A stretch of DNA of 64,000 bases from Escherichia coli. Lineage in GTDB: Bacteria; Pseudomonadota; Gammaproteobacteria; Enterobacterales; Enterobacteriaceae. The stretch's first letter is position 1. Every line of letters starts with the position of its first letter. A model generated the notes under the pieces. That model saw nothing but the letters and a program-made list of their open reading frames with translations, was not told where the DNA came from and ran no database searches. Location: NCBI RefSeq assembly GCF_011045215.1, contig NZ_CP049201.1, one strand, 5' to 3'. Shown one piece after another: positions 1-29,135 of this stretch. A program made the translations under genes and the position numbers.

Positions 1-2
1 GA

Positions 3-719
3 GTGCTATTTGATAGCGCCAGAATGACATTAAGTCGACAAGAGAAAATAGTCAGGCTCTCCGAGTCAGAGTGCCATTTACTGCTGGCTTTTTGGCTTGG
101 ATTGTATAAAAAAGAAGAGATAATCAATTATGTCTGGAAAAATCGCAGCGGATGCGTTTCTGAATCGAGCTATTACAAACTTATCAATCAACTGCGAAAT
201 AACTTCAATCGGGTGGGGCTTCACGCATCAGATATTGTTACACATCCCCGGGTGGGAATATCGTTATCGATAACGCTGACTTCCGCTGATGAAATGTGCG
301 ACCTTCAGCAACAAAACGATGATGGGGCGCAGAAAATAAAATTCCGTGCCCTTTTGTCGCACCGGTTTATGGTTAAATGTAAAAACATGCGAGTACTTTG
401 TTGCACCAGCGGTGTGGTATTGCTGATAGGTATTATCCTCATTTTTAGTTTTCCCAGCGATACAACATGGAATAAATCTGATAAGGAGTTCACCTCGCTT
501 GGCGAGTTTGATGGTTATATTTTCTTTAAAATGAAGACGGATAAATTGACATTCAAGCAAGTCATCGCCGCATATACATCGATGACATTAAAACCTGACC
601 CGCAAAATGGTCATTATCTTTATTACATCAGGGAGCCTGATATCAATCTTTTATTTCAGTGTTTAAATCCGATTGAAAACGTGGTGCCAAAATGTTTAAC
701 CATAAAAGAACAGTACTGA
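3..719 (+). CDS. ToxR/CadC-like membrane-anchored transcriptional regulator (MarT/YqeI-like); 5' end probably cut by window edge
   Basis: N-terminal OmpR/PhoB-type winged-helix pattern (LLLAF...VW...SYYKLINQLR), single TM helix (VVLLIGIILIFSF), C-terminal periplasmic part with Cys pair; paralog of 1397-2137. Confidence 0.6.
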   Translation: MLFDSARMTLSRQEKIVRLSESECHLLLAFWLGLYKKEEIINYVWKNRSGCVSESSYYKLINQLRNNFNRVGLHASDIVTHPRVGISLSITLTSADEMCDLQQQNDDGAQKIKFRALLSHRFMVKCKNMRVLCCTSGVVLLIGIILIFSFPSDTTWNKSDKEFTSLGEFDGYIFFKMKTDKLTFKQVIAAYTSMTLKPDPQNGHYLYYIREPDINLLFQCLNPIENVVPKCLTIKEQY

Positions 720-1198
720 TTACGATGACGGTCATTGCGCTGGTGCTGATCGTGATATTTGGCAGAAACGGGTGGAGTGTTCAGCGAAATGTTATGAATG
801 TGGATAATTTTATTTGTACATCTAAATCAATAGTTTATATTGAACCTATGAAGATGAAACTGCGTGGTACGTTTGTGCTGGATCTTGAGTCAGACCGAAT
901 CGCCATTCATTATGAAGTTGAACAGGCGGATCATAAGGAAAAACTTTTTTTCCAGGATGTTCATATCAGTAAATTACTCCGAACAGGTATCAGAACGTTC
1001 ACATTTAAAGTCAGCTCAGTAAATAAATTTTCTGCTGATTCAACCGGAGATATGTTTTCCTGGTTACGTCTCCTTCAACCCGGTACGGTGAATGAGTTGA
1101 ATATTGTCCAGATCGGTCAAAATGCATATCTGTATTCGTTGAACAGGCATTTATATAATATTTGTACGACAAGCACCAACGCGGTGAATACGCACTAA
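692..1198 (+). CDS. small membrane protein, ToxS/FidL-like partner of the upstream regulator
   Basis: Overlaps upstream gene by 28 nt; N-terminal TM helix; paralog of 2110-2598 (shared C-terminal YLYSLNRHLYNICT motif). Confidence 0.5.
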   Translation: MFNHKRTVLITMTVIALVLIVIFGRNGWSVQRNVMNVDNFICTSKSIVYIEPMKMKLRGTFVLDLESDRIAIHYEVEQADHKEKLFFQDVHISKLLRTGIRTFTFKVSSVNKFSADSTGDMFSWLRLLQPGTVNELNIVQIGQNAYLYSLNRHLYNICTTSTNAVNTH

Positions 1199-1396
1199 TA
1201 GCTGTGTAATGGCCGGTCTATATGGGCATTGTGGCGGGTGTTGATAACGGAAGGGACTATTACATGTCCAATTTCGTCTGGAGCTGGCCTGTGTTAATAT
1301 GAACGCTGAAGGTTCCGTAAGGCTCTTAACTCAGTGCCTGGCAAGGCTGTACAACGGCAGAATCGGATACTCAATGAATAAATTGCAGAAGAAACC

Positions 1397-2137
1397 ATGA
1401 GCGAGCAAAAGTATCTTATCGACAATCGCGTGATATTTGATTCTGAGCGTATGTCATTGACTCACTCAGACAAAACGGTGAGCATTTCAGAATCCGAAAC
1501 GAATTTGCTGCTTGCTTTCTATAAGGGGTTATTCAAAAAGGATGATTTAATCGGCTGGGTCTGGGGGCGTAAGGGAGTCGTAGTTTCTGATGCCAGCTAT
1601 TATAAGCTCATCAATCAGTTACGTAATACTTTCGACAAAATAGGTCTACCGCCCTCATCTGTGGTGACGCGGCCCAAAGTCGGCGTTGAGCTGGTTTTAT
1701 CCATCACGCTCATTAAGCCTGCGACTCCCCGACAACCTGCTGCTGAACCGGTAGAACACTCAGCCGAATCCTTCAGCGAAACCCCGACAATACATGAACA
1801 CAATAAAACCGCTGTAGCAGGCCAGAGAGACTGGCTTTTTCTGGTATTGGCCGCGCTGTTGATGATCGCAGGATTTGGCGCCAGTCTGTGGGAGAGCCAT
1901 CCCTACTTTTCAGTGCCCGTTACCCATGACGGTTACTATTTTTATAAAGTAAGTAACGATAAAACGTCCTTCGAGGATGTGGCTGCGGCCTATGCAGAAT
2001 TGACAATTCCGGTGATTAAGCAGAATGGACGTCATATTTACTATATCAGAGTGCCGGATACCCATATTTTCGTCCAGTGCCTCAACCCACTCACCGTAGC
2101 GGAGCCAAAATGTATTACCCTAAAAGAACGTTATTAA
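1397..2137 (+). CDS. ToxR/CadC-like membrane-anchored transcriptional regulator (MarT/YqeI-like)
   Basis: Same architecture as 3-719: winged-helix N-terminus, TM helix (LFLVLAALLMIAGFGA), periplasmic C-terminus ending KCITLKERY. Confidence 0.65.
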   Translation: MSEQKYLIDNRVIFDSERMSLTHSDKTVSISESETNLLLAFYKGLFKKDDLIGWVWGRKGVVVSDASYYKLINQLRNTFDKIGLPPSSVVTRPKVGVELVLSITLIKPATPRQPAAEPVEHSAESFSETPTIHEHNKTAVAGQRDWLFLVLAALLMIAGFGASLWESHPYFSVPVTHDGYYFYKVSNDKTSFEDVAAAYAELTIPVIKQNGRHIYYIRVPDTHIFVQCLNPLTVAEPKCITLKERY

Positions 2138-2598
2138 GAATATTCACCGTGTTCTTTATTCTCGTCTCCGTGATGTTATGGGTACAGGTAATAAAGAAGC
2201 ACGCGGTCAGTCACCCCTCCGCGGGCAATTTTTTCTGTGCCACCAAAACGATAAGCAACATACAGGCGAAGGGGATAACCGTTGCGGGGGATATTGTCAT
2301 CGACTTCAAAACGCAACGTATTACGTTACAGCATGATGTGAAACAGCATAATAATGCGCATAGCCTGTTATATCGGGATGTTTACATGAAAAATCTGCGG
2401 CGCGTCACTGACGATCTTTTTACGTTTGAGATTGATTCTGTAAAGATATTTCCTGATGACAATGTCGGGAATTTTTTCTCCTATTTTCGCCTGCTCCATC
2501 CGGGGGGCCGCAACGAATTGCGAATTCAACGCATTGGCGAGAAAACCTATCTTTTTTCGCTTAATCGTCAGATTTATAACGTCTGTACAGCAAGTTGA
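2110..2598 (+). CDS. small membrane protein, ToxS/FidL-like partner
   Basis: Start chosen at MYYPKRTLL to match paralog; 28-nt overlap with upstream gene, N-terminal TM helix. Confidence 0.5.
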   Translation: MYYPKRTLLRIFTVFFILVSVMLWVQVIKKHAVSHPSAGNFFCATKTISNIQAKGITVAGDIVIDFKTQRITLQHDVKQHNNAHSLLYRDVYMKNLRRVTDDLFTFEIDSVKIFPDDNVGNFFSYFRLLHPGGRNELRIQRIGEKTYLFSLNRQIYNVCTAS

Positions 2599-2878
2599 AC
2601 TGCACAGGAATGCCCCGAGAGATTCTCTGAGGCCGTATGATAAGAGAGCGGTAAGCGGTAAGGTAACTGAAAGCTCATTACTTATTTAAATACATGGGTT
2701 TATATCAATCGTTCTGATTCTGTTCAACAGTGACAGAGTGAGATTATGATTTTTGTAAGATCTTCTTCCAGACTTTATCTGCCCTGATTAGCTATATTTT
2801 CGCCGCTGTAAACGGACATCAGAATACGTTTAAGTAGTCGTAATTAATGCTTTTTTCAATAAGATAAAGAGGGAGTAT

Positions 2879-3424
2879 TTGTCCATGTCTACGCGACTTC
2901 GTGGCGCTGCAATAATTTGTTTTTGTCTGCTAGCCTCATCTCAGAGTATGGCTAGTGGCACACATACGGTATCAATGGGGTATGCTCAAACACATCTGAG
3001 CGCATTAAAAAGCTCGAACAGCAAAGATCTTCATGGCTTTAATATAAAATATCGCTACGAGTTTGACGAACGCTGGGGCTTTATTGGTGCGTTAACGGCG
3101 ACTCGCCACGAAGTTGAGCATTATAGCTGGCAATCAGCAAAATTAAAAAAAGAGGGTACCGATACCATTGATTATAGTTCGGTAATGTTTGGCCCAACTT
3201 ATCGCTTTAATGATTACATCAGCCTGTATGGCAATGCAGGTATGGCGAGAATGAAAATGAAAAATACTCACTCAAACGAATCAACGGATGATTCGTTTGC
3301 ATACGGGGCCGGGGTAATATTTAACCCGTTAACCAACCTATCGCTTGATCTTTCCTGGGAAGCGTCAAAATTCTATTCTGTCGATGCCAATACGTTTGGC
3401 GTAAGCGTTGGCTATCGCTTTTAA
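2879..3424 (+). CDS. Ail/Lom/PagC/OmpX-family outer membrane beta-barrel protein
   Basis: Signal peptide, alternating beta-strand pattern, C-terminal GVSVGYRF ending in aromatic residue; RBS-like GGAG upstream. Confidence 0.75.
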   Translation: MSMSTRLRGAAIICFCLLASSQSMASGTHTVSMGYAQTHLSALKSSNSKDLHGFNIKYRYEFDERWGFIGALTATRHEVEHYSWQSAKLKKEGTDTIDYSSVMFGPTYRFNDYISLYGNAGMARMKMKNTHSNESTDDSFAYGAGVIFNPLTNLSLDLSWEASKFYSVDANTFGVSVGYRF

Positions 3425-3485
3425 AAATTGTACTCCCAGGGAGTGGGGATAAGTAAAATCATATTAAAGAAATTAAGGTTTATCC

Positions 3486-3842
3486 ATGAAATATATATTA
3501 CCAGCTCTTTTTACGGTGTTTTTAACCGCCTGTAGCGCTAACTCATTACATTCGGGGGCGGAACGGGTTCGTGTGACTCATAACGAGCCTGGAAAAGAGT
3601 GTTCGTGGTTAGGCGACATCACTGGCAGCCAGGGCAACTTTTTTACCGGAGGTTGGACCTCGAACAGTAACCTCGAAACAGGCGCGCGGAATGATATGAA
3701 AAATCAGGCCTGGAAAATGGGTGGAAATGTTGTTGTGCTGCTAACGCAACGCGCAGGGCAAACAGGCAGTTCGTACAATGGCAGTGGTTCAAGTCAGCAA
3801 ACTAACGTGACGCTAAGCGGATCGGTCTACCGTTGCCCATAG
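3486..3842 (+). CDS. small lipoprotein
   Basis: Lipobox LTAC after signal peptide; 118 aa; Gly/Ser-rich periplasmic body. Confidence 0.55.
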   Translation: MKYILPALFTVFLTACSANSLHSGAERVRVTHNEPGKECSWLGDITGSQGNFFTGGWTSNSNLETGARNDMKNQAWKMGGNVVVLLTQRAGQTGSSYNGSGSSQQTNVTLSGSVYRCP

Positions 3843-4018
3843 TCTACTATATTTCATTGATGAACAGAGAGCAGATATCAACATTGACGATTGCGGTCTG
3901 CTCTGATTCATAAATGTCATAAAGGAATGATATTTCATTTTTTTGAAGGTTATTATGATAATTTCTTTTATGCCGGAAAATATATCTTATATTACTTGTG
4001 GGTATGTTGTTGTAAGGT

Positions 4019-4594
4019 ATGGATATACATTTTAAAGCACAATCTCCTGAGGCAGTAACGCTCGCCGTGTGGCCAGATAATAATCCTCTGTTCACTGACT
4101 CTCTTGCCCATTTGATCACCGAAATAAACGTAATAAATCGCGTAGAAGATTTTCTTTTCGTCAATTTTTGCATCGATAACTTTATATACTTTATTCATGA
4201 TGAGTGGCTTGAAAAGTTGAACAAGTCAGGCCTGAGGGGGGTGCTGGTTATTGACCGTTTTATGCATTCGCTGGCGAATTATTGGCGTGAAAAACAACAG
4301 GATATTATCTTGTTATCGGTTGGCGATCGGGACCTGACGTCATTTGTATCGGCCCTGAATAGCCTGTCTTATGGACAAAGCAGGGTGCTAGAAGATGTCA
4401 TGCCGATAACAGAAAAAGAAATTTTTGTGTTACGTAAACGCCTCTCCGGTATGTCCGTAAGAAATATCGCACTCACCCTTAATTGCTCGGTTAAAAGTAT
4501 TTATTATTGCCAGTATTCTTTATTAAAAAAATTGAGGCGTTCGTCACGAATAGGCGAGATTTATATCCATCACTCTCACGTGCATGAGACTTAG
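4019..4594 (+). CDS. LuxR/GerE-type HTH transcriptional regulator
   Basis: C-terminal LuxR-type HTH (ITEKEIFVLRKRLSGMSVRNIALTLNCSVKSIYYCQYSLLKKL); AT-rich gene. Confidence 0.55.
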   Translation: MDIHFKAQSPEAVTLAVWPDNNPLFTDSLAHLITEINVINRVEDFLFVNFCIDNFIYFIHDEWLEKLNKSGLRGVLVIDRFMHSLANYWREKQQDIILLSVGDRDLTSFVSALNSLSYGQSRVLEDVMPITEKEIFVLRKRLSGMSVRNIALTLNCSVKSIYYCQYSLLKKLRRSSRIGEIYIHHSHVHET

Positions 4595-4798
4595 TCGTTA
4601 GCCTGTTTTTTCTGGCGGAATGACGGCATAACCCGGAAGGGATATGCCGCCTGCTTCAGCCTATCACGCCATCAACGCAAAAACTCCCCAGCCAAAATAC
4701 TCCCGGCTGTAGGTAACATTACGCATCGGCGCCGCGCTTAACTCTGCCCGAACCTCAAGCGCGAAACCTGATCCTACCCACGTAATATGGACACAGGC

Positions 4799-5665
4799 CT
4801 AAGCGAGGTTCTGGTTTTCAAATTGTTCCGGACTGAGGCCGCCACACCAACTGTGCCGCCGCCACCGATTGTAATCACATTCGATATAATTAAACACCGT
4901 TGCCCGCATTATTTCCCGGCTGATAAAGTGTTCTCCATGGATACATTCCACTTTCAGCGAATGAAAGAAGCTTTCCACGCAGGCATTATCGTAGCAGCAA
5001 CCTTTTGCGCTCATACTTCCACGCAGATTATGCCGCTTCAGTTGCGCCTGATAATCTGCTGAACAGTACTGGCCTCCACGGTCCGTGTGAACGATAACGT
5101 TCCGGGGCCTCTTACGCCGCCACAGCGCCATCTGCAGGGCATCGCAGGCCAGTTGCGCCGTCATGCGTGGCGACATTGACCAGCCAATAACGGCACGTGA
5201 CCACAGGTCAATGACCACTGCCAGATACAGCCAGCCTTCATCTGTACGTAAGTACGTGATGTCTCCTGCCCACTTCTGGTTCGGGCCACTGGCGTAAAAA
5301 TCCTGCTCCAACAGATTTTCTGACACAGGCAGGCCGTGTGCGCGGTAGCTGACCGGGCTGAACTTCCGGGAGGCCTTTGCCCTCAGTCCCTGACGGCGCA
5401 GGCTTGCCGCCACGGTTTTTACGTTAAAGGGGTAACCCTGAGCACGCAGTTCATCCGTCAGGCGTGGGGCACCGTAACGCTGTTTTGACCGGGTAAAAGC
5501 CGCGAGGACAACGCTGTCGCAGTGTTGGCGGAACTGCTGACGCGTGCTTATCCTTGTCCGCCGCTGACACCACGTATACCAGCCGCTGCGGGCCACCCGG
5601 AGCACGCGGCACATTGCTTTGATGCTGAACTCAGCCTGATGTTTTTCAATAAAGACATACTTCAT
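4799..5665 (-). CDS. insF: IS3 transposase OrfB (DDE integrase domain)
   Basis: 288-aa translation matches IS3 InsF as remembered ([24 protein letters not shown]...). Confidence 0.9.
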
Positions 5666-5970
5666 TTCAGGCGCTTCGCGAAGTATGTCGCGGCCTTTTG
5701 GAGGATAGCCAGCTCTTCATCCCGTTCTGCCAGCTGGCGTTTGAGACGTGCAATCTCGGTAGACATCTCCAGTTCACGTTCAGAAGACGTCTGCTGATTT
5801 TGCTGTTTACTGCGCCAGTTGTAGAGCTGTGATTCATACAGGCTGAGTTCACGGGCTGCGGCAGTAACACCGATGCGTTCAGCAAGCTTCAGGGCTTCAC
5901 TGCGAAATTCAGGCGAATGCTGTTTACGGGGTTTTTTACTGGTTGATACTGTTTTTGTCATGTGAGTCAC
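5662..5970 (-). CDS. insE: IS3 transposase OrfA (HTH)
   Basis: Translation [31 protein letters not shown]... matches IS3 InsE as remembered; overlaps orfB as expected for programmed frameshift. Confidence 0.9.
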
Positions 5971-6016
5971 CTCTGACTGAGAGTTTACTCACTTAGCCGC
6001 GTGTCCACTATTGCTG

Positions 6017-6175
6017 GGTAAGATCACATCGCTATTAATATTTTGACGAATGATAAGGTATTCAAGGCAGGGTTAAGACGTAAGATGCGAAAAGCAGCCA
6101 TGGACAGAAACTATCTCGCGTCAGTACTTGCGGGGAACTGGCTTTCGTAATCTTGCCCTGATCCCGATAGCGGTC
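6017..6175 (+). pseudogene. ISAs1-family (H-repeat) transposase 3' fragment
   Basis: Nucleotide similarity to 18355-18490 (catcgctattaatatt...caaggcagg...gactacctcgcgtcag), encodes [20 protein letters not shown]. Confidence 0.6.
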
Positions 6176-6337
6176 TAATTATTTATAGCACAAGTGGTTT
6201 TTCAATGAATGGGGAAGATCAAGTGAAAAATAATATTCATTAAAAATTGAATAAAATTGAGAGAAGTATATCTCTTTTTAAAAAAGATCCTATTACTTGA
6301 TAGAAGTAATGGTAATTTATGATATGTTCTTATTACA

Positions 6338-6589
6338 TTGAAGAGTATAACTCTTTCCAAAACAGAATTAACATCATCCGTTCTTAAGCAATATCGATTG
6401 GAACTTCTGAAGTATCATGTTGAACTTGTTGAGTTATTTAATAAATATTATATTGTGAATTATAATCCTCAAAGACCCTATCGTATGCATATGTTTCCTC
6501 CTGTGGATGCGGTAGATGGACTTGTGTTTGGTGAAGTGGACCTGAGTAGAATTAGAGATAATATGAATCAGATCTCAAGGAGAATATAA
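6338..6589 (+). CDS. hypothetical protein, possibly 5' part of a frameshifted gene continuing to about 6800
   Basis: 83-aa ORF in AT-rich DNA; a second open frame follows immediately in a different frame. Confidence 0.3.
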   Translation: MKSITLSKTELTSSVLKQYRLELLKYHVELVELFNKYYIVNYNPQRPYRMHMFPPVDAVDGLVFGEVDLSRIRDNMNQISRRI

Positions 6590-6906
6590 GAATTGGAAAG
6601 GAGCTTTCCTTTCAGGCTGCTTTAACTTCGGTAAAATACGTTCTTGAAGCACCAGATAATAAAGTCGGTAATATTGCCACTATTGAGTTTTTCATCAAGG
6701 TTAATTACGAGAATAACCCTTCTGATAAAGCTGAAGTTGAGAAGGTGCTTAATGAATCAGAACTGAAGAATGCTCTTAAGTCCAGAATTCTTGATGATAC
6801 TGTCAGGCAACACAGATGATTAAATCATCTGGATGTATTTAATGCATAAACATTTCTGAATGATACATAAAAATTGTATTTAATGTTTCCCTCCTGGAGA
6901 ATCTCT

Positions 6907-7191
6907 ATGCCCACAGCAGCCAGACTCAGCGATAAAGGCACCCAGCATGACGGTTATTATGAGACCACCATTATTGCAGGCTCCTCCACCGTCTTTATTG
7001 ATGGTATGCCCGCCGCCCGTCAGGGCGATCCGCTGACACCGCATTCCAAACCTGACCATCCCCCTCACCCCCGTAAAATCGCAGGCGGCTCTGCCACTGT
7101 CTTTATTGACGGTAAACCTGCCGCCAGAACCGGCGATGCCATTGACTGTGGCGGCGTGGTTATCGGTGGCGGCACGGTAAATATAGGCTGA
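6907..7191 (+). CDS. PAAR-domain protein (T6SS spike tip)
   Basis: Two repeats of the PAAR motif (FIDGMPAARQGD, FIDGKPAARTGD), about 95 aa, directly upstream of vgrG. Confidence 0.8.
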   Translation: MPTAARLSDKGTQHDGYYETTIIAGSSTVFIDGMPAARQGDPLTPHSKPDHPPHPRKIAGGSATVFIDGKPAARTGDAIDCGGVVIGGGTVNIG

Positions 7192-7211
7192 TTAATTATC
7201 AGGGAGGCTGT

Positions 7212-9611
7212 ATGCCCTCAGAAGGATTACGTTTCACGCTGTCGGTGGACGGTATCGTGGAGATGGCGACGGCGGTGGTGAGCTTCCGTCTGTACCAGCA
7301 CCACTGCACGCCGTTCATCCTGGATGTGGATATCGCCAGCGGGCTGTCTGACCTGACGGCGGAGGATTTTCTGGAGAAGAGCGCGGTGCTGACGGTCTGG
7401 CAGGGTGATATCCCGCAGCGTTACGTCAGCGGTATCGTGACGGAGGTGCAACTGGGGGAGAACAACGACTGGCAGATGCGTTATTCCCTGAGCATCAGCC
7501 CGCCGCTGTGGCGGGCAGGGTTACGGCAGAACTTCCGTATCTTCCAGCAGCAGGACATCCAGACGATATCAGCACAGCTTCTGAGAGAGAACGGAGTGAC
7601 GGCATGGATGCCGCTGTTTTATGAAGACCATCCGGCGCGGGAGTTCTGTGTGCAGTACGGGGAAAGCGACCTGGCGTTTCTGGCGCGGCTGTGGGCGGAG
7701 GAGGGGATTTTCTTCTTTGAGCGGTTTGCGGCGGACAGTCCGGAGCAGAAGCTGACGCTGTGCGACGATGTGGCGGGGCTGTCACAGGCGGGAGAGCTTC
7801 CGTTTAACCCGGACACATCGGCAGGAGCGGAGACGGAGTGTCTCAGTACGTTCCGTTATGAGGCGCATGTCCGCCCGTCGTCGGTGCAGAGTCAGGATTA
7901 CACGTTTAAGGTGCCGGACTGGCCGGGGATGTATGAGCAGCAGGGTGAGAACCTGAACGGACAGCTGGCGCAGTACGAGATATTTGATTATCCGGGAAGG
8001 TTCAAGGATGAGCAGCACGGCAAGGATTTCACGCTGTACCAGATGGACAGCCTGCGCAGTGATGCGGAAAAGGCCACAGGGCAGAGTAATTCACCGAAGC
8101 TGTGGCCGGGAACGCGGTTTACGCTGACGGGGCATCCGCAGAAGATGCTGAACCGTGAATGGCAGGTGGTACAGAGCATACTGTCAGGAAGCCAGCCGCA
8201 GGCGCTGCACGGCAGCCAGGGGAGGGGAACCACGCTGGGAAATCAGTTAGAGGTGATACCGGCAGACCGGACGTGGCGTCCACGGCTGCAAAGCAAACCG
8301 AAGGTGGACGGGCCGCAGAGTGCCATTGTGACCGGGCCGAAGGGTGAGGAGATATTCTGCGACGAACATGGCCGGGTACGGGTGAAGTTCCACTGGGACC
8401 GTTATCACGGGATGACGGAGGCGAGTTCATGCTGGGTGCGGGTATCGCAGGCGTGGGCGGGGCCGGGGTTCGGTAACCTGGCGATACCGCGGGTGGGCCA
8501 GGAGGTGATTGTTGACTTCCTGAACGGCGACCCGGACCAGCCCATCGTCACGGGACGGACCTACCATGAAGATAACCGCTCCCCGGGCGACCTGCCGGGA
8601 ACGAAGACGCAGATGACGATACGGTCGAAGACCTATAAAGAAAGCGGATTTAACGAGTTGCGGTTTGAAGACGCCACCAGTAATGAGCAGGTGTATATCC
8701 ACGCGCAGAAGAACATGGATACGGAGGTGCTCAACGACCGGACAACGGATGTGAAGCATGACCATACGGAGACCATTGGTAACGACCAGAAGATAACGGT
8801 GGTGAAGGGGCAGACGGTTGAGGTCGGGACCAGAAAAGAAGGAGGCCACGACCAGAGTATCACGGTGGCGAACGACCGGAGCATAACGGTACGTAACGAC
8901 CAGACGCTGAAGGTGACAAATGACCGGACGGTGAGCGTGAGTCACGATGACGGTCTGTACGTCAGAAATGACCGTAGGGTGACGGTGAAAGGGAAGCAGG
9001 AGCATAAGACGACGGGTAACCACATCAGCCTGGTGGAGGGGAAGCACAGCCTGGAGGTGAAGGGGGACCTGGCGGAGAAGGTGAGTGGCGCGCTGGGGAT
9101 AGAAGTGGACGGGGATATCGTGCTGGAGAGCAGCAGCCGGATAAGCCTGAAGGTGGGTGGCTCGTTTATCGTCATTCAGCCGGGCGGAGTGGATATTGCC
9201 GGGCCGAAGATAAACCTGAACGGTGGGGGCAGTGCGGGGACACCGGTGGGGACGATGCAGCCGGCGGTGCTGGAGGCTCCGGAGGATGAGAGCAGTGATG
9301 ATGGCAGTGATGACTCCGGAGAGGATAGTGGCAATCCCGCAGGGAGTGACGGAGGAGGTGATGGCGGTGACGATGAAGATGATCCTGAAAAATATACCCT
9401 CCAGTTCCATTTTACGGACGATGACGGGATACCGTATTCAGAGACGCAGTATATTGCCTTTTTTGAGGATGGCACACAGACGCGTGGTGAAACAGACAGA
9501 GAGGGATATACAGAAATATTTTATACAGATACAGCACAGGAAATTAAAGTCCAATTGTTATTTTCGGATGCTTTTTATATTGAGCCGGAGGGGCATTATG
9601 GCAGGGAATAA
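7212..9611 (+). CDS. vgrG: T6SS spike protein VgrG with acidic linker and C-terminal extension
   Basis: 799 aa; gp27/gp5-like core, beta-helix repeats (NDRT.. repeats), acidic stretch EDESSDDGSDDSGEDSG, then about 70-aa C-terminal tail. Confidence 0.9.
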   Translation: MPSEGLRFTLSVDGIVEMATAVVSFRLYQHHCTPFILDVDIASGLSDLTAEDFLEKSAVLTVWQGDIPQRYVSGIVTEVQLGENNDWQMRYSLSISPPLWRAGLRQNFRIFQQQDIQTISAQLLRENGVTAWMPLFYEDHPAREFCVQYGESDLAFLARLWAEEGIFFFERFAADSPEQKLTLCDDVAGLSQAGELPFNPDTSAGAETECLSTFRYEAHVRPSSVQSQDYTFKVPDWPGMYEQQGENLNGQLAQYEIFDYPGRFKDEQHGKDFTLYQMDSLRSDAEKATGQSNSPKLWPGTRFTLTGHPQKMLNREWQVVQSILSGSQPQALHGSQGRGTTLGNQLEVIPADRTWRPRLQSKPKVDGPQSAIVTGPKGEEIFCDEHGRVRVKFHWDRYHGMTEASSCWVRVSQAWAGPGFGNLAIPRVGQEVIVDFLNGDPDQPIVTGRTYHEDNRSPGDLPGTKTQMTIRSKTYKESGFNELRFEDATSNEQVYIHAQKNMDTEVLNDRTTDVKHDHTETIGNDQKITVVKGQTVEVGTRKEGGHDQSITVANDRSITVRNDQTLKVTNDRTVSVSHDDGLYVRNDRRVTVKGKQEHKTTGNHISLVEGKHSLEVKGDLAEKVSGALGIEVDGDIVLESSSRISLKVGGSFIVIQPGGVDIAGPKINLNGGGSAGTPVGTMQPAVLEAPEDESSDDGSDDSGEDSGNPAGSDGGGDGGDDEDDPEKYTLQFHFTDDDGIPYSETQYIAFFEDGTQTRGETDREGYTEIFYTDTAQEIKVQLLFSDAFYIEPEGHYGRE

Positions 9612-10401
9612 TAATACTAGTGGGACTTCACAACCCGAGTCGCAAGTATGTGTAGTACCGCAAAAAATTACAAATAAATTTAAAATAATGATGAGTAAGG
9701 CTTGTAAAGCACAGAAAATGGTTTTATTGAAAAGAGCAGATGATATTATGTCATGGGAGGGGGAACAACAACGAGATTTTATTAAAGTTTTTGGCCTTAA
9801 AGGCGAGGACATTATAAAAATCAGAAAGGTTGGGGAAGATACTGGGAAACGAATGCAAGCGAGACTATTCATAATGGATGGCATCAGACAAATAATGACG
9901 ATTGCAAATGGTTTGACGATCGAAAGCTATAAAGATTATACGAACTGCAATGAATTTGCTGCTTTTATTAGTCCACATCTTGATCCTCCTTACATTGTAA
10001 ATATCGGAGCGCATTTTGAATACAGACATGGTATAAAACAGTCGGTTACAGGTAGAGACTCTCATGTAAGTACACTTTGCCATGAAATGTCCCATATATT
10101 TTGGTATTGGGGTGACAATCAAAAAGGTGGTATGTGGACTCAGGATTATACGGGTATTAATAAGTTCGCAACAAGTAATAAGGATGAAGTTAGCTATGAG
10201 AAACATGTTTCAGTGGCTAATGATCTGGTTACATTGCGTAAAGATCAGTTATTTGAGAATGCATATAATGTTGAAAGATATTTTTATATAAAATTAAATG
10301 ATGAAGATATTGAAGCTCAAGATGAGAATATGTTAGCAAAAAAAGTAGAGGATAAAATAAAAGAGATAGAAAAATGTTTTGATGAGTTGATGGGGAAATA
10401 A
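9598..10401 (+). CDS. putative T6SS effector, HExxH zinc-metallopeptidase-like
   Basis: Start overlaps vgrG stop by 14 nt; HEMSH motif (LCHEMSHIFWYW); AT-rich versus GC-rich vgrG; the longer listed ORF 9223-10401 is an in-frame read-through of vgrG sequence. Confidence 0.6.
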   Translation: MAGNNNTSGTSQPESQVCVVPQKITNKFKIMMSKACKAQKMVLLKRADDIMSWEGEQQRDFIKVFGLKGEDIIKIRKVGEDTGKRMQARLFIMDGIRQIMTIANGLTIESYKDYTNCNEFAAFISPHLDPPYIVNIGAHFEYRHGIKQSVTGRDSHVSTLCHEMSHIFWYWGDNQKGGMWTQDYTGINKFATSNKDEVSYEKHVSVANDLVTLRKDQLFENAYNVERYFYIKLNDEDIEAQDENMLAKKVEDKIKEIEKCFDELMGK

Positions 10402-10402
10402 G

Positions 10403-11242
10403 ATGAAGAGGTTGGCTTTCTATAATCTAAATTATGTTGTACTGATGGTTTTTTTTCTTTGTTTTTTGCCATTATCTATTGCAATTGCAATAGATAATGA
10501 GAATCTTTTTGTAAAAAAATACAGATTCGGTTTTGAACGAAGAAATGACAATGGGAAACCAATTATTTATCTTAGCCATAATTTAGCGCCAGAGGAAAAT
10601 ATAAGTAATGAATTAACAAATGATGTTGTTGTTAAATTGGTGGTTAAGCCACATGCTGAAAATATTTTAGCTACTATAACTTTTTATAACAGTAGTACTA
10701 AATCGTATTTTCTCCCCAGAATATATTATCCAAAGAACTTCCAAAAAGGAAATGGAGATGTATTTGATGCTTTGTGTGATGACGAATTCTTGATTACATC
10801 AGGAAATATTAGCTTAGACTATCTAGGAGGCTTTTGTCCCTTTGAGCTTGATTTGAATTTGAGCCGATGGGTGGAAATTACGGCAGGTAAAAAAATATCT
10901 TTTGATGTAAAATTGAATGATATGCATTCATTTCTCCCCAGTTTAAATAATTATCATATAAAAACATTAAACTACAAACTTGTTAGGAGAAAATGGTTTG
11001 TATTAAAATCAATTAATGAAACATTCCTCTCTATTTTGATGAAAAGATACTCATGTAATGAATATGATTTTAGAGCTATATCATTTAGTGGAGAGGGATG
11101 TGATAATTATGAATTTGATAAAAATACGTTTTTTTTTGTTAATCAAATATTAGATAAAGATGATGAGCAACATTCTGTTCATATTAGGTCTAATGAATTT
11201 TCCATCAATATCGATGGAAGCTTGGTAAAGCAACCTTATTGA
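10403..11242 (+). CDS. putative cognate immunity protein (exported or membrane-anchored)
   Basis: Starts 2 nt after effector stop; N-terminal hydrophobic signal/anchor (VVLMVFFLCFLPLSIAIA); AT-rich. Confidence 0.5.
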   Translation: MKRLAFYNLNYVVLMVFFLCFLPLSIAIAIDNENLFVKKYRFGFERRNDNGKPIIYLSHNLAPEENISNELTNDVVVKLVVKPHAENILATITFYNSSTKSYFLPRIYYPKNFQKGNGDVFDALCDDEFLITSGNISLDYLGGFCPFELDLNLSRWVEITAGKKISFDVKLNDMHSFLPSLNNYHIKTLNYKLVRRKWFVLKSINETFLSILMKRYSCNEYDFRAISFSGEGCDNYEFDKNTFFFVNQILDKDDEQHSVHIRSNEFSINIDGSLVKQPY

Positions 11243-11299
11243 TTAAAATGTATCGCAGGTTTTATTTTCTGTAATGCTGGTGCATGTGCGTAAATATTT

Positions 11300-11730
11300 C
11301 TTAAGAGCCGGAAACACCTCTTCCGCCTTTATCGACGATAAACCTACCGCCAGAACCGGTGATGCCATTGACTGCGGTGGCGTGGTTAAAGGTGGAGGGC
11401 GATGTGGTGCTGGAGAGCAGCAGCCGGATAAGCCTGAAGGTGGGCGGCTCGTTTGTGGTCATCCATTCAGGGGGCGTGGACATCGTCGGGCCGAAAATCA
11501 ATCTCAATAGCGGCGGTAGTCCGGGAACGCCGGTGCCGACGCTGCAACCGGCGGTTCTGAAAGCGCTGGCAGATGATAAAAGTTTAGCGGCTGAGCAAAA
11601 TGATAGTAATGCATCGTCCGATCAGAATGATAACAACGATGAGGGTGAGGAAGCGCCAGAAAAATCGGTGTGTAAGGAGTGCCTGAAAAGGGCGCAAGAA
11701 GCCGCCGCCGTTTTTGCGCCTCGTGGATAA
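11300..11730 (+). pseudogene. PAAR 3' fragment fused to vgrG 3' fragment (deletion scar of a second PAAR-vgrG copy)
   Basis: 11310-11398 is near-identical to PAAR 3' end (7090-7180); 11398-11560 near-identical to vgrG 9120-9280; a distinct C-terminal tail follows. Confidence 0.7.
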
Positions 11731-11736
11731 GGGAGA

Positions 11737-12506
11737 ATGACAATGATAACAGTATCGCCACACGCTACCGATCAAGACAAATATATTATCTGGCTGAAGC
11801 AAGCTGAATCATTCTGTTCTGCCGCTGGTTTGGATTACATAGATGTGCTTGTTGACCAGGCTGGAACCGACCAACCTTTGCAAAATGATATGCTTCATCT
11901 GTCGCCAGCCATTCACTGGTATGCCCTGTTTGAAGGAACGCCTGAAGCTGAGACGATGGAGTATTCCCCTGTAGTGTTACGCCTGTACTTTGCGCTCAGT
12001 AGCCATCGCAAATTTCTGGCACAACTGATGGCGTCATTTGCTGATACGCCGCGTCTTACTTTGTTGATATCCCCTCTTACATTCGACCTGCTGGGCGGCA
12101 TCTTCAGGTATTGTCACAGGTTCAGTGGGAAGAACAGACCGGATTGCTGCGTTACTATGATAATCGGGTGTTCCCTTTACTGTTCACACATGTTTTGACT
12201 AACGAGCAGCAGGCGACATTTACTGATATTGCGTTGTTCTGGAGCTGGTTAGACCGTGATGGTGAGATTAACTGGAAATCAGGAAGTTTTTCACCAGAAC
12301 GCAGGCTTACTGACAACCCGGAGATGAATCGGGTGGATGATGTACAGGTGGGATTGATGGGCTGTATCTGCGACGCTGAAGTCCTGATGAAGGAGAAAGC
12401 AGTCAGTGAACTCAGTCAGGAAAGCTATTTTGCCCACTGTCTTGATATTGCTTTCAGGGCCAATGACGCGAAATATTTCGGAGCTTTGCGGGACTTCGAA
12501 GGATAA
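11737..12506 (+). pseudogene. hypothetical T6SS accessory protein (adaptor-like position), apparently frameshifted
   Basis: Two overlapping ORFs (11737-12198, 12111-12506) in different frames, directly after the vgrG tail fragment. Confidence 0.35.
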
Positions 12507-12819
12507 TATTGTGGTGATGTACGGGGAGATTTATCTGTTTAAAAGTCCGTAGCTGTTAATATCAAGAGATAATCGTGAAATAAACGGAAAATCAAGCTCG
12601 ACATGTAATGGTAGTATCCATCATGTTGCATTTGTGTTCGATCGTAATGTCAGTTCACTTGGCTGCAATATATTTTGCGTAATATCATCAATGCTCTGTC
12701 GATATTCCAATGTGTGACAATCGAAAGATATGCATTTTATTTGCTTCTATGTCAAAACTTTATTGTCGTAGAAACAATACCCATCAATTAAAATCTCTCA
12801 AAGTAAAAGAACCAGCAAC

Positions 12820-13362
12820 ATGTCCAGCAAAATAAGAAATGGAATGAATATAACAAAAGTAGTTAAAGGCTGTCTGGTATTAATTTTGATGGTGATTTCT
12901 GGTTGCTCAGCAGATAATTACGACGATTATACTGCAGGTGATCTCCGGGCAATAAATCATATTAAAGGTATCAGTATTAATTGGTTCACCGTAAATGGTT
13001 ATCGGGTCCATGGTTTGGGCGGTGGATATTGCTGCATAATGTTACCAAAGAAGTGGCATTCTGGATTAAAAGCCCGGATCGAGTGGGAAGTAGACCCGAC
13101 CCCCCTTGAACCTATTGCAATGAAAAAAGAAGGTTTTGGCTATGAAGAAGATGCTTATGCTAAACATGCTGCAAATTATCAAAAATATAAAGTAATTGTT
13201 GACATCCCGGAATACGGCGCTGAACGTTGTGGCCTGACCGTTCATTTTCTGCCGTGTAATCAGATTAAAGTGACAACCGTCTGCGAGGGCTATGGCACAC
13301 CGAATTATCCTATCAAAGAACCCCGCGAGATGAAGGAACCTGCAACATGTCCAGCAAAATAA
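12820..13362 (+). CDS. lipoprotein, candidate Tle1 immunity (Tli-like)
   Basis: Lipobox ISGC after signal peptide; Cys-rich periplasmic domain; 3' end overlaps tle1 start. Confidence 0.5.
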   Translation: MSSKIRNGMNITKVVKGCLVLILMVISGCSADNYDDYTAGDLRAINHIKGISINWFTVNGYRVHGLGGGYCCIMLPKKWHSGLKARIEWEVDPTPLEPIAMKKEGFGYEEDAYAKHAANYQKYKVIVDIPEYGAERCGLTVHFLPCNQIKVTTVCEGYGTPNYPIKEPREMKEPATCPAK

Positions 13363-23886: not shown

Positions 23887-24125
23887 AACGAAAAGCCCCT
23901 TACTTGTAGGAGGTCTGACCACTTGTGATGATATGGTTGTAGTGGATGTAAAAACATTTAGCAATGTGTTTACAATATAATTACAACAAAGCTCACATTG
24001 TTGCTGTTTTTATCCGCACTTCAGGTCAAAAAGTCCTGGTCATAGCACCTGCCCGTACTTCTCGCTTTTGGCGGTATCCGGTACACTGCATTTTGTCTAT
24101 TACATTTATGCTGAAGGATATCCTC

Positions 24126-24704
24126 ATGTACCAGGATCTTATTCGTAACGAACTGAACGAAGCGGCGGAAACGCTGGCTAACTTTTTAAAAGATGACGCC
24201 AATATTCACGCCATTCAGCGCGCGGCGGTCCTGTTAGCAGACAGCTTTAAAGCCGGTGGCAAAGTGCTTTCCTGCGGCAACGGCGGTTCCCATTGCGACG
24301 CCATGCACTTTGCCGAAGAGTTGACCGGTCGCTACCGTGAAAACCGTCCGGGCTACCCGGCGATTGCCATTTCTGACGTTAGTCATATTTCCTGCGTCGG
24401 TAATGATTTCGGTTTCAATGATATTTTCTCCCGCTACGTTGAAGCGGTAGGCCGCGAAGGCGATGTACTGCTGGGGATCTCCACATCTGGTAACTCTGCA
24501 AACGTGATCAAAGCGATCGCAGCGGCGCGTGAGAAGGGGATGAAAGTGATCACCCTGACCGGTAAAGACGGCGGCAAAATGGCTGGCACGGCGGATATCG
24601 AAATTCGCGTTCCGCACTTTGGTTATGCCGACCGCATTCAGGAGATTCACATTAAAGTGATCCATATCCTGATCCAGTTGATTGAAAAAGAGATGGTTAA
24701 GTAA
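24126..24704 (+). CDS. gmhA: D-sedoheptulose-7-phosphate isomerase GmhA
   Basis: 192 aa, SIS domain ([16 protein letters not shown]). Confidence 0.95.
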
Positions 24705-24707
24705 GTC

Positions 24708-24865
24708 TGGCGTAGGCCGGATAAGACGTTTACGCCGCATCCGGCATTTGTGCGCTGATGCCTGATGCGACGCTGACGCGTCTTATCATGCCTACAAATC
24801 TGTACGCGAACCGTAGGCCGAATAATGCGTTCACGCCGCATCCGACCTGAAAATTCTTAAATCAA
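24708..24865. repeat. REP/BIME palindromic elements
   Basis: GCCGGATAAG...GCCGCATCCGGC and TGCCTGATGCGACGCTGACGCGTCTTATCATGCCTACA units. Confidence 0.6.
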
Positions 24866-24909
24866 TCTTCGCCGGGGGCCATGCGCTCCCGCTGTTGTGG
24901 AGGTTACCC

Positions 24910-25677
24910 ATGTGCGAATTGCTCGGGATGAGCGCCAACGTCCCTACCGATATCTGCTTTAGTTTCACCGGTCTGGTGCAGCGTGGTGGTGGAACCGGGC
25001 CACATAAAGATGGCTGGGGCATTACCTTTTACGAAGGTAAAGGCTGTCGCACATTTAAAGATCCGCAACCCAGCTTTAACTCACCTATCGCCAAACTGGT
25101 CCAGGACTACCCGATAAAATCCTGTTCGGTGGTGGCTCATATTCGCCAGGCTAATCGGGGCGAGGTGGCGCTGGAAAATACTCACCCGTTTACCCGCGAG
25201 TTATGGGGGCGTAACTGGACTTATGCCCATAACGGGCAACTGACGGGCTACAAATCACTGGAAACCGGCAACTTCCGCCCGGTAGGCGAAACCGACAGCG
25301 AAAAAGCCTTCTGCTGGCTCCTGCATAAATTAACGCAGCGTTACCCGCGCACACCGGGCAACATGGCGGCGGTATTTAAATATATCGCCTCACTGGCGGA
25401 TGAACTGCGGCTGAAGGGCGTTTTCAACATGCTGCTTTCTGACGGGCGCTATGTGATGGCATATTGCTCGACTAATTTACACTGGATCACCCGCCGCGCG
25501 CCGTTTGGCGTGGCAACGTTGCTGGATCAGGATGTGGAAATCGACTTCAGCTCGCAGACCACACCGAATGATGTGGTCACGGTGATTGCAACACAGCCGC
25601 TGACGGGCAATGAAACCTGGCAAAAGATTATGCCAGGCGAATGGCGCTTATTTTGCCTCGGGGAGCGTGTAGTTTGA
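24910..25677 (+). CDS. yafJ: class II glutamine amidotransferase YafJ
   Basis: Starts MCELLG (N-terminal catalytic Cys after Met), 255 aa. Confidence 0.9.
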
Positions 25678-26822: not shown

Positions 26823-26824
26823 AT

Positions 26825-28718: not shown

Positions 28719-28719
28719 T

Positions 28720-29135
<416 letters not shown>

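What the first reader, a model, noticed from the sequence alone, without database searches (positions are those of the whole stretch)
2879..4594. Ail/Lom-type OMP, small lipoprotein and orphan LuxR-type regulator in the island
A virulence-associated 8-strand OMP family gene, a lipoprotein and a LuxR-family regulator, each with its own AT-rich upstream region, lie between the ToxR-like modules and IS3. They may be the targets of the adjacent membrane-bound regulators.
Basis: inference. Interest (0 to 1): 0.35.

Follow-up and report, generated by a model that had tools for sequence, protein, structure and literature searches.

The report
Rare surface-protein gene cluster in E. coli
Three intact genes (an Ail/OmpX-type outer-membrane barrel, a small lipoprotein and a LuxR-type regulator) are the tail of a horizontally acquired envelope locus already present, and partly studied, in Salmonella; it is very rare in E. 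coli but of a known kind.

Summary
Window 2885-3424 encodes an Ail/Lom-family 8-strand OMP. 3486-3842 encodes a DUF4156 lipoprotein. 4019-4594 encodes a GerE/LuxR-type regulator. They lie between two ToxR-like gene pairs and IS3.

The block is the E. coli counterpart of the Salmonella STM0341-STM0349 region. The OMP is 70% identical to STM0346, the lipoprotein 80.5% to STM0349, and the ToxR-like pairs 48-59% to STM0341/0342 and STM0344/0345. Those pairs are published "co-component" VtrA/VtrC-type systems.

The order pair2 -> OMP -> lipoprotein is kept in Escherichia, Citrobacter, Kluyvera, Salmonella, Klebsiella and Proteus. All the OMP promoters share a GTAAGA-type direct repeat 39-40 nt upstream of a -10-like TATAT.

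The LuxR gene is the variable part. It belongs to the EcpR/YqeH family, with a receiver-like N-domain. Salmonella has a non-orthologous regulator in its place, and Klebsiella and Proteus have none.

The block occurs in 1 of 5,426 complete E. coli genomes. Verdict: new member of a known kind, modest interest.

The parts
3..719 (+). ToxR-like wHTH-TM regulator 1. The window edge cuts its 5' end. It is an STM0341-type VtrA-like co-component.
   Evidence: 48% identical to Salmonella STM0341 and 54% to the K. oxytoca counterpart. RefSeq calls it a winged helix-turn-helix protein of 249 aa. The full-length PapRG copy gives a weak Trans_reg_C hit.
692..1198 (+). Overlapping partner gene 1, an STM0342-type VtrC/FidL-like periplasmic component.
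   Evidence: 59% identical to STM0342. Its start ATG overlaps a Cys codon of the upstream gene, as described for co-component cassettes (repeat D2).
1397..2137 (+). ToxR-like wHTH-TM regulator 2, STM0344-type.
   Evidence: 54% identical to STM0344 and 57% to K. oxytoca. The wHTH region shows weak similarity to YqeI. STM0344/STM0345 are listed as a candidate co-component system in PMC9214523.
2110..2598 (+). Overlapping partner gene 2, an STM0345-type lipocalin-like component.
   Evidence: 48% identical to STM0345. Weak Pfam FidL_like hit at E 0.047. N- and C-terminal Cys residues are conserved, by inspection.
2744..2798 (+). Conserved OMP promoter core. It holds the degenerate direct repeat TTATGA-N5-GTAAGA (2744-2760), the heptamer TGTAAGA (2754-2760), and a -10-like TATATT (2793-2798) with no recognisable -35.
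   Evidence: TGTAAGA occurs once per stretch scanned in 8 of 9 stretches, always upstream of the OMP gene. It lies 39-40 nt upstream of TATAT in all 10 loci, including Proteus. A 7-mer shared by four lineages was reached in 20 of 1000 shuffles. Two further GTAAG-type repeat matches lie at 2640-2674.
2885..3424 (+). Ail/Lom/OmpX-family 8-stranded outer-membrane beta-barrel, the orthologue of Salmonella STM0346.
   Evidence: Pfam and NCBIfam hits. Full-length match to Ail 3qra and OmpX 1orm. 39% identical to Y. pestis Ail and 36% to K-12 OmpX. 70% identical to STM0346.
3432..3444 (.). Small hairpin (ACTCCCAGGGAGT) between the OMP and lipoprotein genes, with no T-run on the + strand.
   Evidence: It is present in E. 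coli and C. sedlakii and deleted in Kluyvera.
3486..3842 (+). DUF4156 outer-membrane lipoprotein, the orthologue of STM0349 and a paralogue of K-12 YjeI. The model has an RcsF/YbjQ-like fold.
3843..4018 (+). AT-rich (30% GC) upstream region of the regulator gene, with a sigma-70-like match at 3927-3956.
   Evidence: It is 85-87% conserved with C. sedlakii and Kluyvera.
4019..4594 (+). EcpR/YqeH-family regulator with a receiver-like N-domain (EcpR_N) and a C-terminal GerE/LuxR HTH.
   Evidence: GerE hit. Precomputed PF27348 plus PF00196. 27% identical over the full length to YqeH, E 3e-19. AF2 model with pLDDT 87 aligns over its full length with RcsB, EvgA and VpsT. The profile hits EvgA at 1.9e-10.
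4664..4765 (-). Remnant of a SAM-dependent methyltransferase gene. It marks the right-hand end of the acquired block.
   Evidence: RefSeq pseudogene annotation in PapRG-06-5. 79% identical to a class I methyltransferase gene on an Enterobacter plasmid. The sequence is shared with Kluyvera.
4769..6026 (-). IS3 element that truncates the block. It has no 3-bp target duplication.
   Evidence: The flanks are ACC and CAT. The same left junction occurs in PapRG-06-5, where the right flank is different DNA.

Best explanation
The three genes are the distal part of a horizontally acquired envelope or adhesion locus. This locus is the Escherichia version of the Salmonella STM0341-STM0349 region.

Shown:
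- The OMP is an Ail/OmpX-type 8-strand barrel and the orthologue of STM0346.
- The lipoprotein is the STM0349-type DUF4156 protein.
- The two upstream ToxR-like pairs are orthologues of STM0341/0342 and STM0344/0345, which are VtrA/VtrC-type 'co-component' membrane signal transducers.
- The regulator is an EcpR/YqeH-family protein with a receiver-like N-domain and a GerE HTH.

Inferred mechanism:
1. The periplasmic wHTH2/lipocalin-like heterodimer senses a small hydrophobic cue.
2. The cytoplasmic wHTH domain binds the GTAAGA-type direct repeat that replaces the -35 of the OMP promoter.
3. This activates an OMP-lipoprotein transcript and remodels the cell surface.
4. The regulator has its own promoter. 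By analogy with EcpR/MatA, YqeH and Salmonella STM0347, it probably couples expression of this surface module to motility or adhesion genes elsewhere, and perhaps to the lipoprotein gene.
For: Gene identities rest.

Orthology to the Salmonella locus rests. The gene order and sizes match the STM numbering, and the STM0344 length of 247 aa quoted in PMC9214523.

Synteny: pair2 -> OMP -> DUF4156 is conserved in E. coli, C. sedlakii, Kluyvera, two unnamed lineages, S. enterica, S. diarizonae, K. oxytoca, C. werkmanii and P. mirabilis. It holds despite different flanks and the presence or absence of pair 1, an EAL gene, an autotransporter or fimbriae.

Promoter: the conserved architecture and direct repeat are specific to the OMP upstream region. 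They are retained in K. oxytoca and Proteus, which have no GerE regulator in the locus. The wHTH proteins are therefore the only locus-encoded DNA-binding proteins present in every locus.

Precedents in which co-component regulators activate an adjacent surface-protein gene include MarT/FidL-MisL.

Published Salmonella data:
- STM0346 and STM0347 were induced together, 18.4-fold and 16.7-fold (PMC3361161).
- Deleting STM0347 made STM0349 the most up-regulated protein and lowered FliC, FlgN and HilA (PMC9368917).
- Mutants in yqeH and yqeI lose motility (PMC11068852).
- MatA/EcpR represses flhDC.

All the genes are under purifying selection.
Against: - There are no expression or binding data for this locus.
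- The promoter element could equally be the site of a global OmpR/PhoB-family regulator such as PhoP or OmpR, whose boxes are also 11-bp-spaced direct repeats.
- In the E. coli/C. sedlakii/Kluyvera clade the distal half-site is degenerate (TTATGA).
- The STM0349-type lipoprotein stands alone in 13 of 19 species, so its link to the locus is not obligatory.
- The regulator here is not orthologous to STM0347, so the Salmonella phenotypes transfer only by analogy.
- Synteny among related Enterobacterales can persist by descent without any functional coupling.
Confidence: 0.6

Rival explanations
1. The locus-encoded LuxR-type regulator, not the ToxR-like pair, is the local regulator of the OMP and lipoprotein genes. 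The ToxR-like pairs control other genes, for example the divergent autotransporter or fimbrial operon.
For: In Salmonella, deleting STM0347 made the STM0349 lipoprotein the most up-regulated protein. STM0346 and STM0347 are co-induced. EcpR regulates its neighbouring operon.
Against: K. oxytoca and P. mirabilis loci have no GerE regulator, yet they keep the OMP, the lipoprotein and the conserved promoter element. The regulator here and STM0347 are not orthologous. The STM0349 increase could be a polar or read-through effect of the deletion.
Confidence: 0.2
2. The genes are functionally independent passengers, kept together only because the block was inherited and transferred as a unit. The OMP promoter is driven by a global regulator such as PhoP or OmpR.
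For: DUF4156 orthologues are stand-alone in 13 of 19 species, in unrelated housekeeping contexts. The LuxR component is variable. The repeat resembles generic OmpR/PhoB-family boxes. pagC-type Ail/Lom genes are PhoP-activated (established knowledge, not tested here).
Against: The pair2-OMP adjacency survives rearrangements that removed or replaced every other neighbour. TGTAAGA occurs only at this promoter within each locus.
Confidence: 0.17
3. In this E. coli the module is a silent, decaying remnant stranded by IS3-mediated rearrangement.
For: IS3 abuts the block without a target duplication, and the DNA to its right differs between the two E. coli genomes. A methyltransferase remnant lies at 4664-4765. 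The AT-rich upstream regions are typical H-NS targets (inference).
Against: All seven ORFs are intact. The region has only 3 substitutions in 5 kb between two E. coli genomes. dN/dS is 0.06-0.43 against other genera. The homology with Kluyvera runs up to the IS3 junction, so nothing internal to the five-gene module is missing.
Confidence: 0.1

Closest known systems
Salmonella enterica STM0341-STM0349 region (next to the stb fimbrial operon)
   Same: It holds the same gene families in the same order: wHTH/partner pair 1, wHTH/partner pair 2, an Ail/OmpX homologue (70% identical) and a DUF4156 lipoprotein (80.5% identical). It also shares the OMP promoter element.
   Different: Salmonella has a CSS-EAL gene between the pairs, and fimbriae instead of an autotransporter on the divergent side. 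It has a non-orthologous GerE regulator (STM0347) plus a 74-aa ORF inserted between the OMP and the lipoprotein. Here the regulator is EcpR/YqeH-type and lies after the lipoprotein.
Yersinia Ail / E. coli OmpX (Ail/Lom family, PF06316)
   Same: It is an 8-strand barrel family member that aligns along the whole mature length. It is 39% identical to Ail and 36% to OmpX, and has a signal peptide and a C-terminal YRF.
   Different: It scores below the NCBIfam equivalog cut-offs for OmpX (116.6 vs 176) and Rck/PagC (74.7 vs 258). It is a separate paralogue. No serum-resistance or adhesion data exist for it.
RcsF (outer-membrane stress-sensor lipoprotein) and YjeI (K-12 DUF4156 lipoprotein)
   Different: It lacks the long disordered N-terminal linker of RcsF; RcsF carries a ~21-residue insertion here in the alignment. 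It has only two non-lipobox Cys residues, so at most one disulfide. No link to IgaA or Rcs is known.
EcpR/MatA and YqeH (EcpR_N + GerE regulators of E. coli)
   Same: It has the same two-domain architecture and full-length homology: 27% identical to YqeH (E 3e-19), and a weak EcpR model hit at 3e-14. Like yqeH, it sits beside a ToxR-like/FidL-like pair (yqeI-yqeJ).
   Different: It is far below the EcpR equivalog cut-off (53 vs 300). It is not adjacent to an ecp operon. Its targets are unknown.
Co-component systems that control adjacent surface genes: MarT/FidL-MisL (SPI-3), PsaE/PsaF-psaABC, VtrA/VtrC, ToxR/ToxS
   Same: All have a membrane wHTH regulator, an overlapping gene for a lipocalin-like periplasmic partner, and an adjacent surface-protein gene.
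   Different: Sequence similarity to FidL and YqeI is marginal. The ligand and regulon are unknown. Here the adjacent gene is a small OMP rather than an autotransporter or fimbria.

Membership tests
Ail/Lom (PF06316) / OmpX-type 8-strand OMP | Pfam Ail_Lom or OMP_b-brl score above the gathering cut-off | tested here: met
   Ail_Lom 77.8 bits against a cut-off of 23. OMP_b-brl 90.2 bits against 28.7.
Ail/Lom (PF06316) / OmpX-type 8-strand OMP | Mature chain aligns end to end with solved 8-strand barrels | tested here: met
   Residues 25-179 align with 3qra residues 3-157 (2.5e-26). Residues 26-179 align with OmpX 1orm residues 2-148 (3.8e-23). No structure prediction was run for this protein.
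Ail/Lom (PF06316) / OmpX-type 8-strand OMP | Sec signal peptide and C-terminal aromatic beta-signal | tested here: met
   By inspection of the translation: MSTRLRGAAIICFCLLASSQSMA|SG... and ...VGYRF.
OmpX orthologue / Rck-PagC orthologue (NCBIfam equivalogs) | Score above the curated equivalog cut-off | tested here: not met
   OmpX 116.6 against 176. PRK15240 74.7 against 258.
Ail/Lom virulence function | Serum resistance, adhesion or invasion conferred by the protein | not testable with these tools
   This needs wet-lab assays.
DUF4156 lipoprotein (PF13698) | Pfam score above the cut-off, plus a lipobox | tested here: met
   101.4 bits against 28.9. The lipobox is LTAC, with an invariant Cys across 21 homologues.
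RcsF family | RcsF signalling-domain fold | tested here: met
RcsF family | Long disordered N-terminal linker between the lipid anchor and the folded domain | tested here: not met
   Only about 12 residues separate Cys16 from the first strand. RcsF has a ~21-residue insertion here in the hhalign alignment.
RcsF family | Two conserved disulfides; signalling to IgaA | tested here: inconclusive
   Only two conserved non-lipobox Cys residues (C39, C117) are present, so at most one disulfide is possible. IgaA interaction is not testable here.
LuxR/GerE HTH regulators (PF00196) | C-terminal GerE HTH above the cut-off | tested here: met
   27.8 bits against 23.5, residues 129-177.
EcpR/YqeH family (EcpR_N PF27348 + GerE) | EcpR_N N-terminal domain and full-length homology to a named member | tested here: met
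   PF27348 is precomputed for this exact protein. Alignment to YqeH covers residues 15-189, E 3e-19. The family is small: 271 representatives at E<=1e-3 among 1.84 billion proteins.
EcpR orthologue (NCBIfam NF047921) | Equivalog cut-off of 300 bits; position upstream of ecpA | tested here: not met
   53.4 bits. There is no ecp operon downstream.
Quorum-sensing LuxR solo | N-terminal autoinducer-binding domain | tested here: not met
   No Pfam hit other than GerE and Sigma70_r4_2. The N-domain model is receiver-like instead.
Canonical NarL/FixJ response regulator | Receiver domain with an acidic pair, a phospho-acceptor Asp, a Thr/Ser and a Lys | tested here: inconclusive
   The fold aligns over its full length with RcsB, EvgA and VpsT. 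D79-x-x-M82 and S100 are conserved. There is no Pfam Response_reg hit, no acidic pair and no beta5-Lys. The residue mapping is inferred from secondary-structure order, not from a residue-level superposition.
Co-component (VtrA/VtrC-type) signal transduction cassette (Kinch et al. 2022) | wHTH-TM-periplasmic regulator plus an overlapping gene for a TM-anchored lipocalin-like partner, with the start ATG overlapping a Cys codon, and homology to a listed cassette | tested here: met
   54% and 48% identical to STM0344 and STM0345; 48% and 59% to STM0341 and STM0342. The overlaps at 692-719 and 2110-2137 contain AAAATGT (repeat D2). The lipocalin fold itself was not modelled here.

The most novel reading that the evidence does not exclude
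The Ail/OmpX-type barrel and the RcsF-fold lipoprotein form an outer-membrane sensing pair, analogous to RcsF with its OMP partners. This pair would signal across the periplasm to the VtrA/VtrC-type inner-membrane co-component system. The EcpR/MatA-like regulator, whose family member MatA interacts with RcsB, would tie the output to motility. Together this would make a mobile, Rcs-like trans-envelope signalling circuit.
Probability: 0.07. Interest if true: 0.65.

Novelty: new member of a known kind. Interest (0 to 1): 0.3.

Why it matters
It shows that a Salmonella-type envelope locus has been transferred into a few E. coli strains. That locus holds co-component regulators, an Ail/OmpX-type OMP and a DUF4156 lipoprotein. 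It has been partly studied but its function is unassigned.

It also gives a concrete, testable candidate regulon for the STM0344/STM0345-type co-component system, whose targets are unknown: the OMP promoter with its conserved GTAAGA repeat.

The RcsF-like fold of DUF4156 (the YjeI and STM0349 family) and the receiver-like fold of the EcpR_N domain are small annotation gains. They suggest experiments on two uncharacterised Enterobacterial protein families.

Tried and rejected
- **Small RNA or riboswitch in the long intergenic regions:** Rfam at E<=1 found nothing in 1-7000.
- **Long direct or inverted repeats in 1-4800:** only the paralogous overlap region of the two pairs, plus chance-level matches.
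- **DUF4156 as a YqeK counterpart in a yqeHIJK-like layout:** no similarity.
- **The regulator as an orthologue of STM0347:** rejected. Only 26% identity over 62 aa of the HTH. STM0347 has a different N-terminal domain.
- **Quorum-sensing LuxR solo:** no autoinducer-binding domain.
- **VpsT-like c-di-GMP binding:** the W[FLM][TS]R motif is absent, by inspection of the sequence.
- **Plasmid origin:** only weak Salmonella and Enterobacter fragments in PLSDB.
- **Sequence-only search of the PDB with the lipoprotein or its profile:** only chance antibody hits. Fold comparison was needed.
- **Neighbourhoods of stand-alone DUF4156 orthologues:** varied housekeeping contexts that suggest no function.
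- **Genome-wide enrichment of GTAAGA-N5-GTAAGA in the window:** none, 36 found against 35 expected. Three of the 36 do fall in the 286-bp OMP upstream region. That local clustering was noticed post hoc.
- **Word-indexed homologue search for the regulator:** reached only close relatives. The exhaustive profile search was needed.
Full report
**What is there**

The ORF list and the RefSeq annotation of a near-identical E. coli genome agree on seven + strand genes before IS3:
- a wHTH-TM gene, 3-719, cut by the window edge
- an overlapping small gene, 692-1198
- a second wHTH-TM gene, 1397-2137
- its overlapping small gene, 2110-2598
- an OMP gene, 2885-3424
- a lipoprotein gene, 3486-3842
- a regulator gene, 4019-4594

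IS3 occupies 4769-6026. A methyltransferase remnant lies at 4664-4765 on the minus strand.

Pfam places the three focal proteins in OMP_b-brl/Ail_Lom, DUF4156 and GerE.

- **OMP.** It aligns over its whole mature length with the solved barrels of Y. pestis Ail (2.5e-26) and OmpX. It is 39% identical to Ail and 36% to OmpX. It scores below the curated cut-offs for OmpX and Rck/PagC orthologues. I ran no further search on it.
- **Lipoprotein.** It has the lipobox LTAC.
- **Start codons.** The finding's start at 2879 is the mechanical TTG. ATG 2885 has proper Shine-Dalgarno spacing and is the conserved start.

**Rarity and origin**

Bases 1-4750 occur in one of 5,426 complete E. coli genomes. That genome is PapRG-06-5, from a Gambian baboon. 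The result is the same with sensitive blastn. The block is not on plasmids.

The rest of the window is ordinary E. coli chromosome beside T6SS remnants. Compared with the PapRG-06-5 copy, the first 5 kb of the window differs at only three positions.

The same block is 92% identical in DNA in Citrobacter sedlakii and 85% in Kluyvera, where it sits after proBA. Kluyvera holds only the five-gene core: pair 2, OMP, lipoprotein and regulator.

In both E. coli genomes IS3 lacks a target-site duplication, and the DNA to its right differs between them. The right edge was therefore shaped by IS3-mediated rearrangement.

**Wider family of loci**

More distant OMP relatives (61-70% identical) occur in Salmonella, K. 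oxytoca and C. werkmanii (a K. michiganensis homologue was listed but its locus was not examined). They sit in the same architecture: a chaperone-usher operon (divergent), then wHTH plus partner, CSS-EAL, wHTH plus partner, Ail/Lom, DUF4156, and sometimes an EcpR_N regulator.

The Salmonella gene sizes and order match the STM0341-STM0349 numbering. They also match the 247-aa length quoted for STM0344.

Pairwise identities:

| Window gene | Salmonella counterpart | Identity |
|---|---|---|
| wHTH1 | STM0341 | 48% |
| partner 1 | STM0342 | 59% |
| wHTH2 | STM0344 | 54% |
| partner 2 | STM0345 | 48% |
| OMP | STM0346 | 70% |
| lipoprotein | STM0349 | 80.5% |

Kinch et al. (PMC9214523) list STM0341/0342 and STM0344/0345 as candidate 'co-component' systems. 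They group them with VtrA/VtrC, ToxR/ToxS, PsaE/PsaF, MarT/FidL and YqeI/YqeJ, and give no known function.

I scanned one genome per species with the lipoprotein alignment and classified the neighbours with HMMs.
- The STM0349-type lipoprotein was found in 19 species.
- In five of them (C. sedlakii, a Kluyvera-like genome, P. mirabilis, K. oxytoca, S. diarizonae) it follows pair 2 and the OMP.
- In 13 of the other 14 it stands alone among unrelated housekeeping genes; in C. werkmanii the representative genome was not examined for neighbours.

Conversely, in every locus that has pair 2, the OMP follows directly and the lipoprotein follows within about 1.1 kb.

**Regulatory signals**

Among E. 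coli, C. sedlakii and Kluyvera the intergenic regions contain strongly conserved blocks. Adding the distant loci leaves one block upstream of the OMP gene. It reads [GTAARW]-N5-TGTAAGAY-N3-TTYCAKA. It is followed 39-40 nt after the T of TGTAAGA by TATAT, and there is no usable -35.

- In Salmonella the repeat is perfect: GTAAGA-N5-GTAAGA.
- In this window the distal half is degenerate (TTATGA, 2744-2749). The proximal half is GTAAGA (2755-2760), with TATATT at 2793-2798.
- TGTAAGA occurs once in 8 of the 9 stretches scanned, always upstream of the OMP gene; the 25-kb PapRG stretch has three, one of them there.
- A 7-mer shared by four lineages arose in 20 of 1000 dinucleotide shuffles. The fixed spacing in ten loci comes on top of that.
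- Two more GTAAG-type repeat matches lie at 2640-2674. I noticed these post hoc.

Direct repeats with an 11-bp period, placed where a -35 should be, are what OmpR/PhoB/ToxR-type wHTH activators use. That is established knowledge of the family. Which protein binds this site is inference.

K. oxytoca and P. mirabilis have no GerE-type gene in the locus, yet they keep the element. The wHTH proteins are therefore the only locus-encoded DNA-binding proteins present in all loci. A global regulator is not excluded.

The 61-bp gap between the OMP and lipoprotein genes has a short hairpin without a T-run. In this lineage the two genes are probably one transcript.

**The lipoprotein**

- It is the best conserved gene of the block, with dN/dS of 0.06-0.09.
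- It is a paralogue of K-12 YjeI, at 32.5% identity.
- Sequence searches of the PDB found nothing.
- An AlphaFold model from 21 homologues has a mean pLDDT of 74, with core blocks at 85-92.
- A profile-sequence alignment to RcsF is marginally significant at E 1.4e-4. Part of that alignment is the signal peptide.
- It lacks RcsF's long linker and has only two non-lipobox cysteines.

So it resembles RcsF in fold, but I do not file it as RcsF.

**The regulator**

- It is 27% identical over its full length to YqeH and carries the EcpR_N domain.
- It is 68-92% identical to its counterparts in C. sedlakii, Kluyvera and the two unnamed lineages, and 44% to the C. werkmanii protein.
- It evolves fastest of the genes in the block, with dN/dS of 0.28-0.43.
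- An exhaustive profile search finds only 271 cluster representatives at E<=1e-3, so the family is small.
- A model built from 70 of these has pLDDT 87. It aligns over its full length with RcsB, EvgA and VpsT. The profile reaches EvgA at 1.9e-10.

The N-domain is therefore receiver-like. It keeps an Asp-x-x-Met motif (D79, M82) and a Ser (S100). It lacks the acidic pair and the fifth strand with its Lys. That residue mapping is my inference from the order of secondary-structure elements.

STM0347, which occupies a similar slot in Salmonella, is not its orthologue.

**Published phenotypes of relatives**

- MatA/EcpR activates ecp fimbriae and represses flhDC. It also interacts with RcsB.
- yqeH and yqeI mutants lose motility.
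- Deleting STM0347 raised STM0349 more than any other protein and lowered FliC, FlgN and HilA.
- STM0346 and STM0347 rose together in an stbC mutant.
- STM0345 insertions reduced macrophage fitness in S. Enteritidis.

**Verdict**

The OMP, with the lipoprotein behind it, is a credible target of the adjacent co-component system. The evidence is conserved synteny and a conserved activator-type promoter, and it remains untested. The regulator gene is an accessory, variable member of the locus, not a conserved target.

Everything belongs to known families, and the locus type is already present and partly studied in Salmonella. I rate it a new member of a known kind, with modest interest.

Noticed in passing
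window 4769-6026 and flanks; L001 19769-21026: IS3 has no 3-bp target-site duplication (left flank ACC, right flank CAT). The left junction is identical in E. coli PapRG-06-5. There the right side is a chaperone-usher fimbrial operon, whereas this window has an AT-rich stretch followed by PAAR and VgrG genes. This implies an IS3-mediated rearrangement.
   Followed up: partly
window 4003-4021: In C. sedlakii and Kluyvera the regulator gene can be read from an upstream ATG, giving MLLQG-MD.... In this E. coli CAA has become TAA, leaving a 3-codon mini-ORF (ATG TTG TTG TAA). In locus L011 that upstream ATG is ATA. The conserved start is therefore ATG 4019.
   Followed up: yes
window 683-711 and 2101-2129: The two regulator/partner overlaps are paralogous 29-nt repeats, 86% identical. 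In both, the partner's ATG sits inside ...AAA-TGT (Lys-Cys) of the regulator frame. This is the arrangement described for co-component cassettes in PMC9214523.
   Followed up: yes
L001 (E. coli PapRG-06-5) 8243-14556 and 21556-32589: The baboon strain's island also carries a 1403-aa autotransporter divergent from wHTH1, two EAL-domain genes, a chaperone-usher operon and a third wHTH/partner pair (28713-29896). These are the same parts as in the Salmonella, Klebsiella and Citrobacter loci, but reshuffled by IS elements.
   Followed up: partly
window 6027-6870: A very AT-rich stretch (GC 0.28-0.37) lies between IS3 and the PAAR gene. It contains an 83-aa ORF (6338-6589) with no Pfam or NCBIfam hit.
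   Followed up: no
window 6874-11242: A PAAR-like gene (6874-7191), a VgrG gene (7212-9611) and downstream ORFs match T6SS Vgr and Tle1-phospholipase effector regions of other E. coli next to fadE and yafV.
   Followed up: no
window 4664-4765 (- strand): This remnant of a class I SAM-dependent methyltransferase gene is also present downstream of the regulator gene in Kluyvera. It is 79% identical to a gene on an Enterobacter hormaechei plasmid. The donor lineage therefore resembled Kluyvera at this end and C. sedlakii at the other.
   Followed up: partly
L025 (Proteus mirabilis ATCC 29906) 6440-10360: A member of the Morganellaceae carries both co-component pairs, the OMP and an 80%-identical lipoprotein, with the same promoter element. 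This points to inter-family horizontal transfer of the block.
   Followed up: partly
window 2640-2674: A second cluster of GTAAG-type repeats (ATAAGAGAGCGGTAAGC, GTAAGGTAACTGAAAGC) lies about 100 nt upstream of the conserved promoter core. It is partly conserved in C. sedlakii, Kluyvera and Salmonella.
   Followed up: partly
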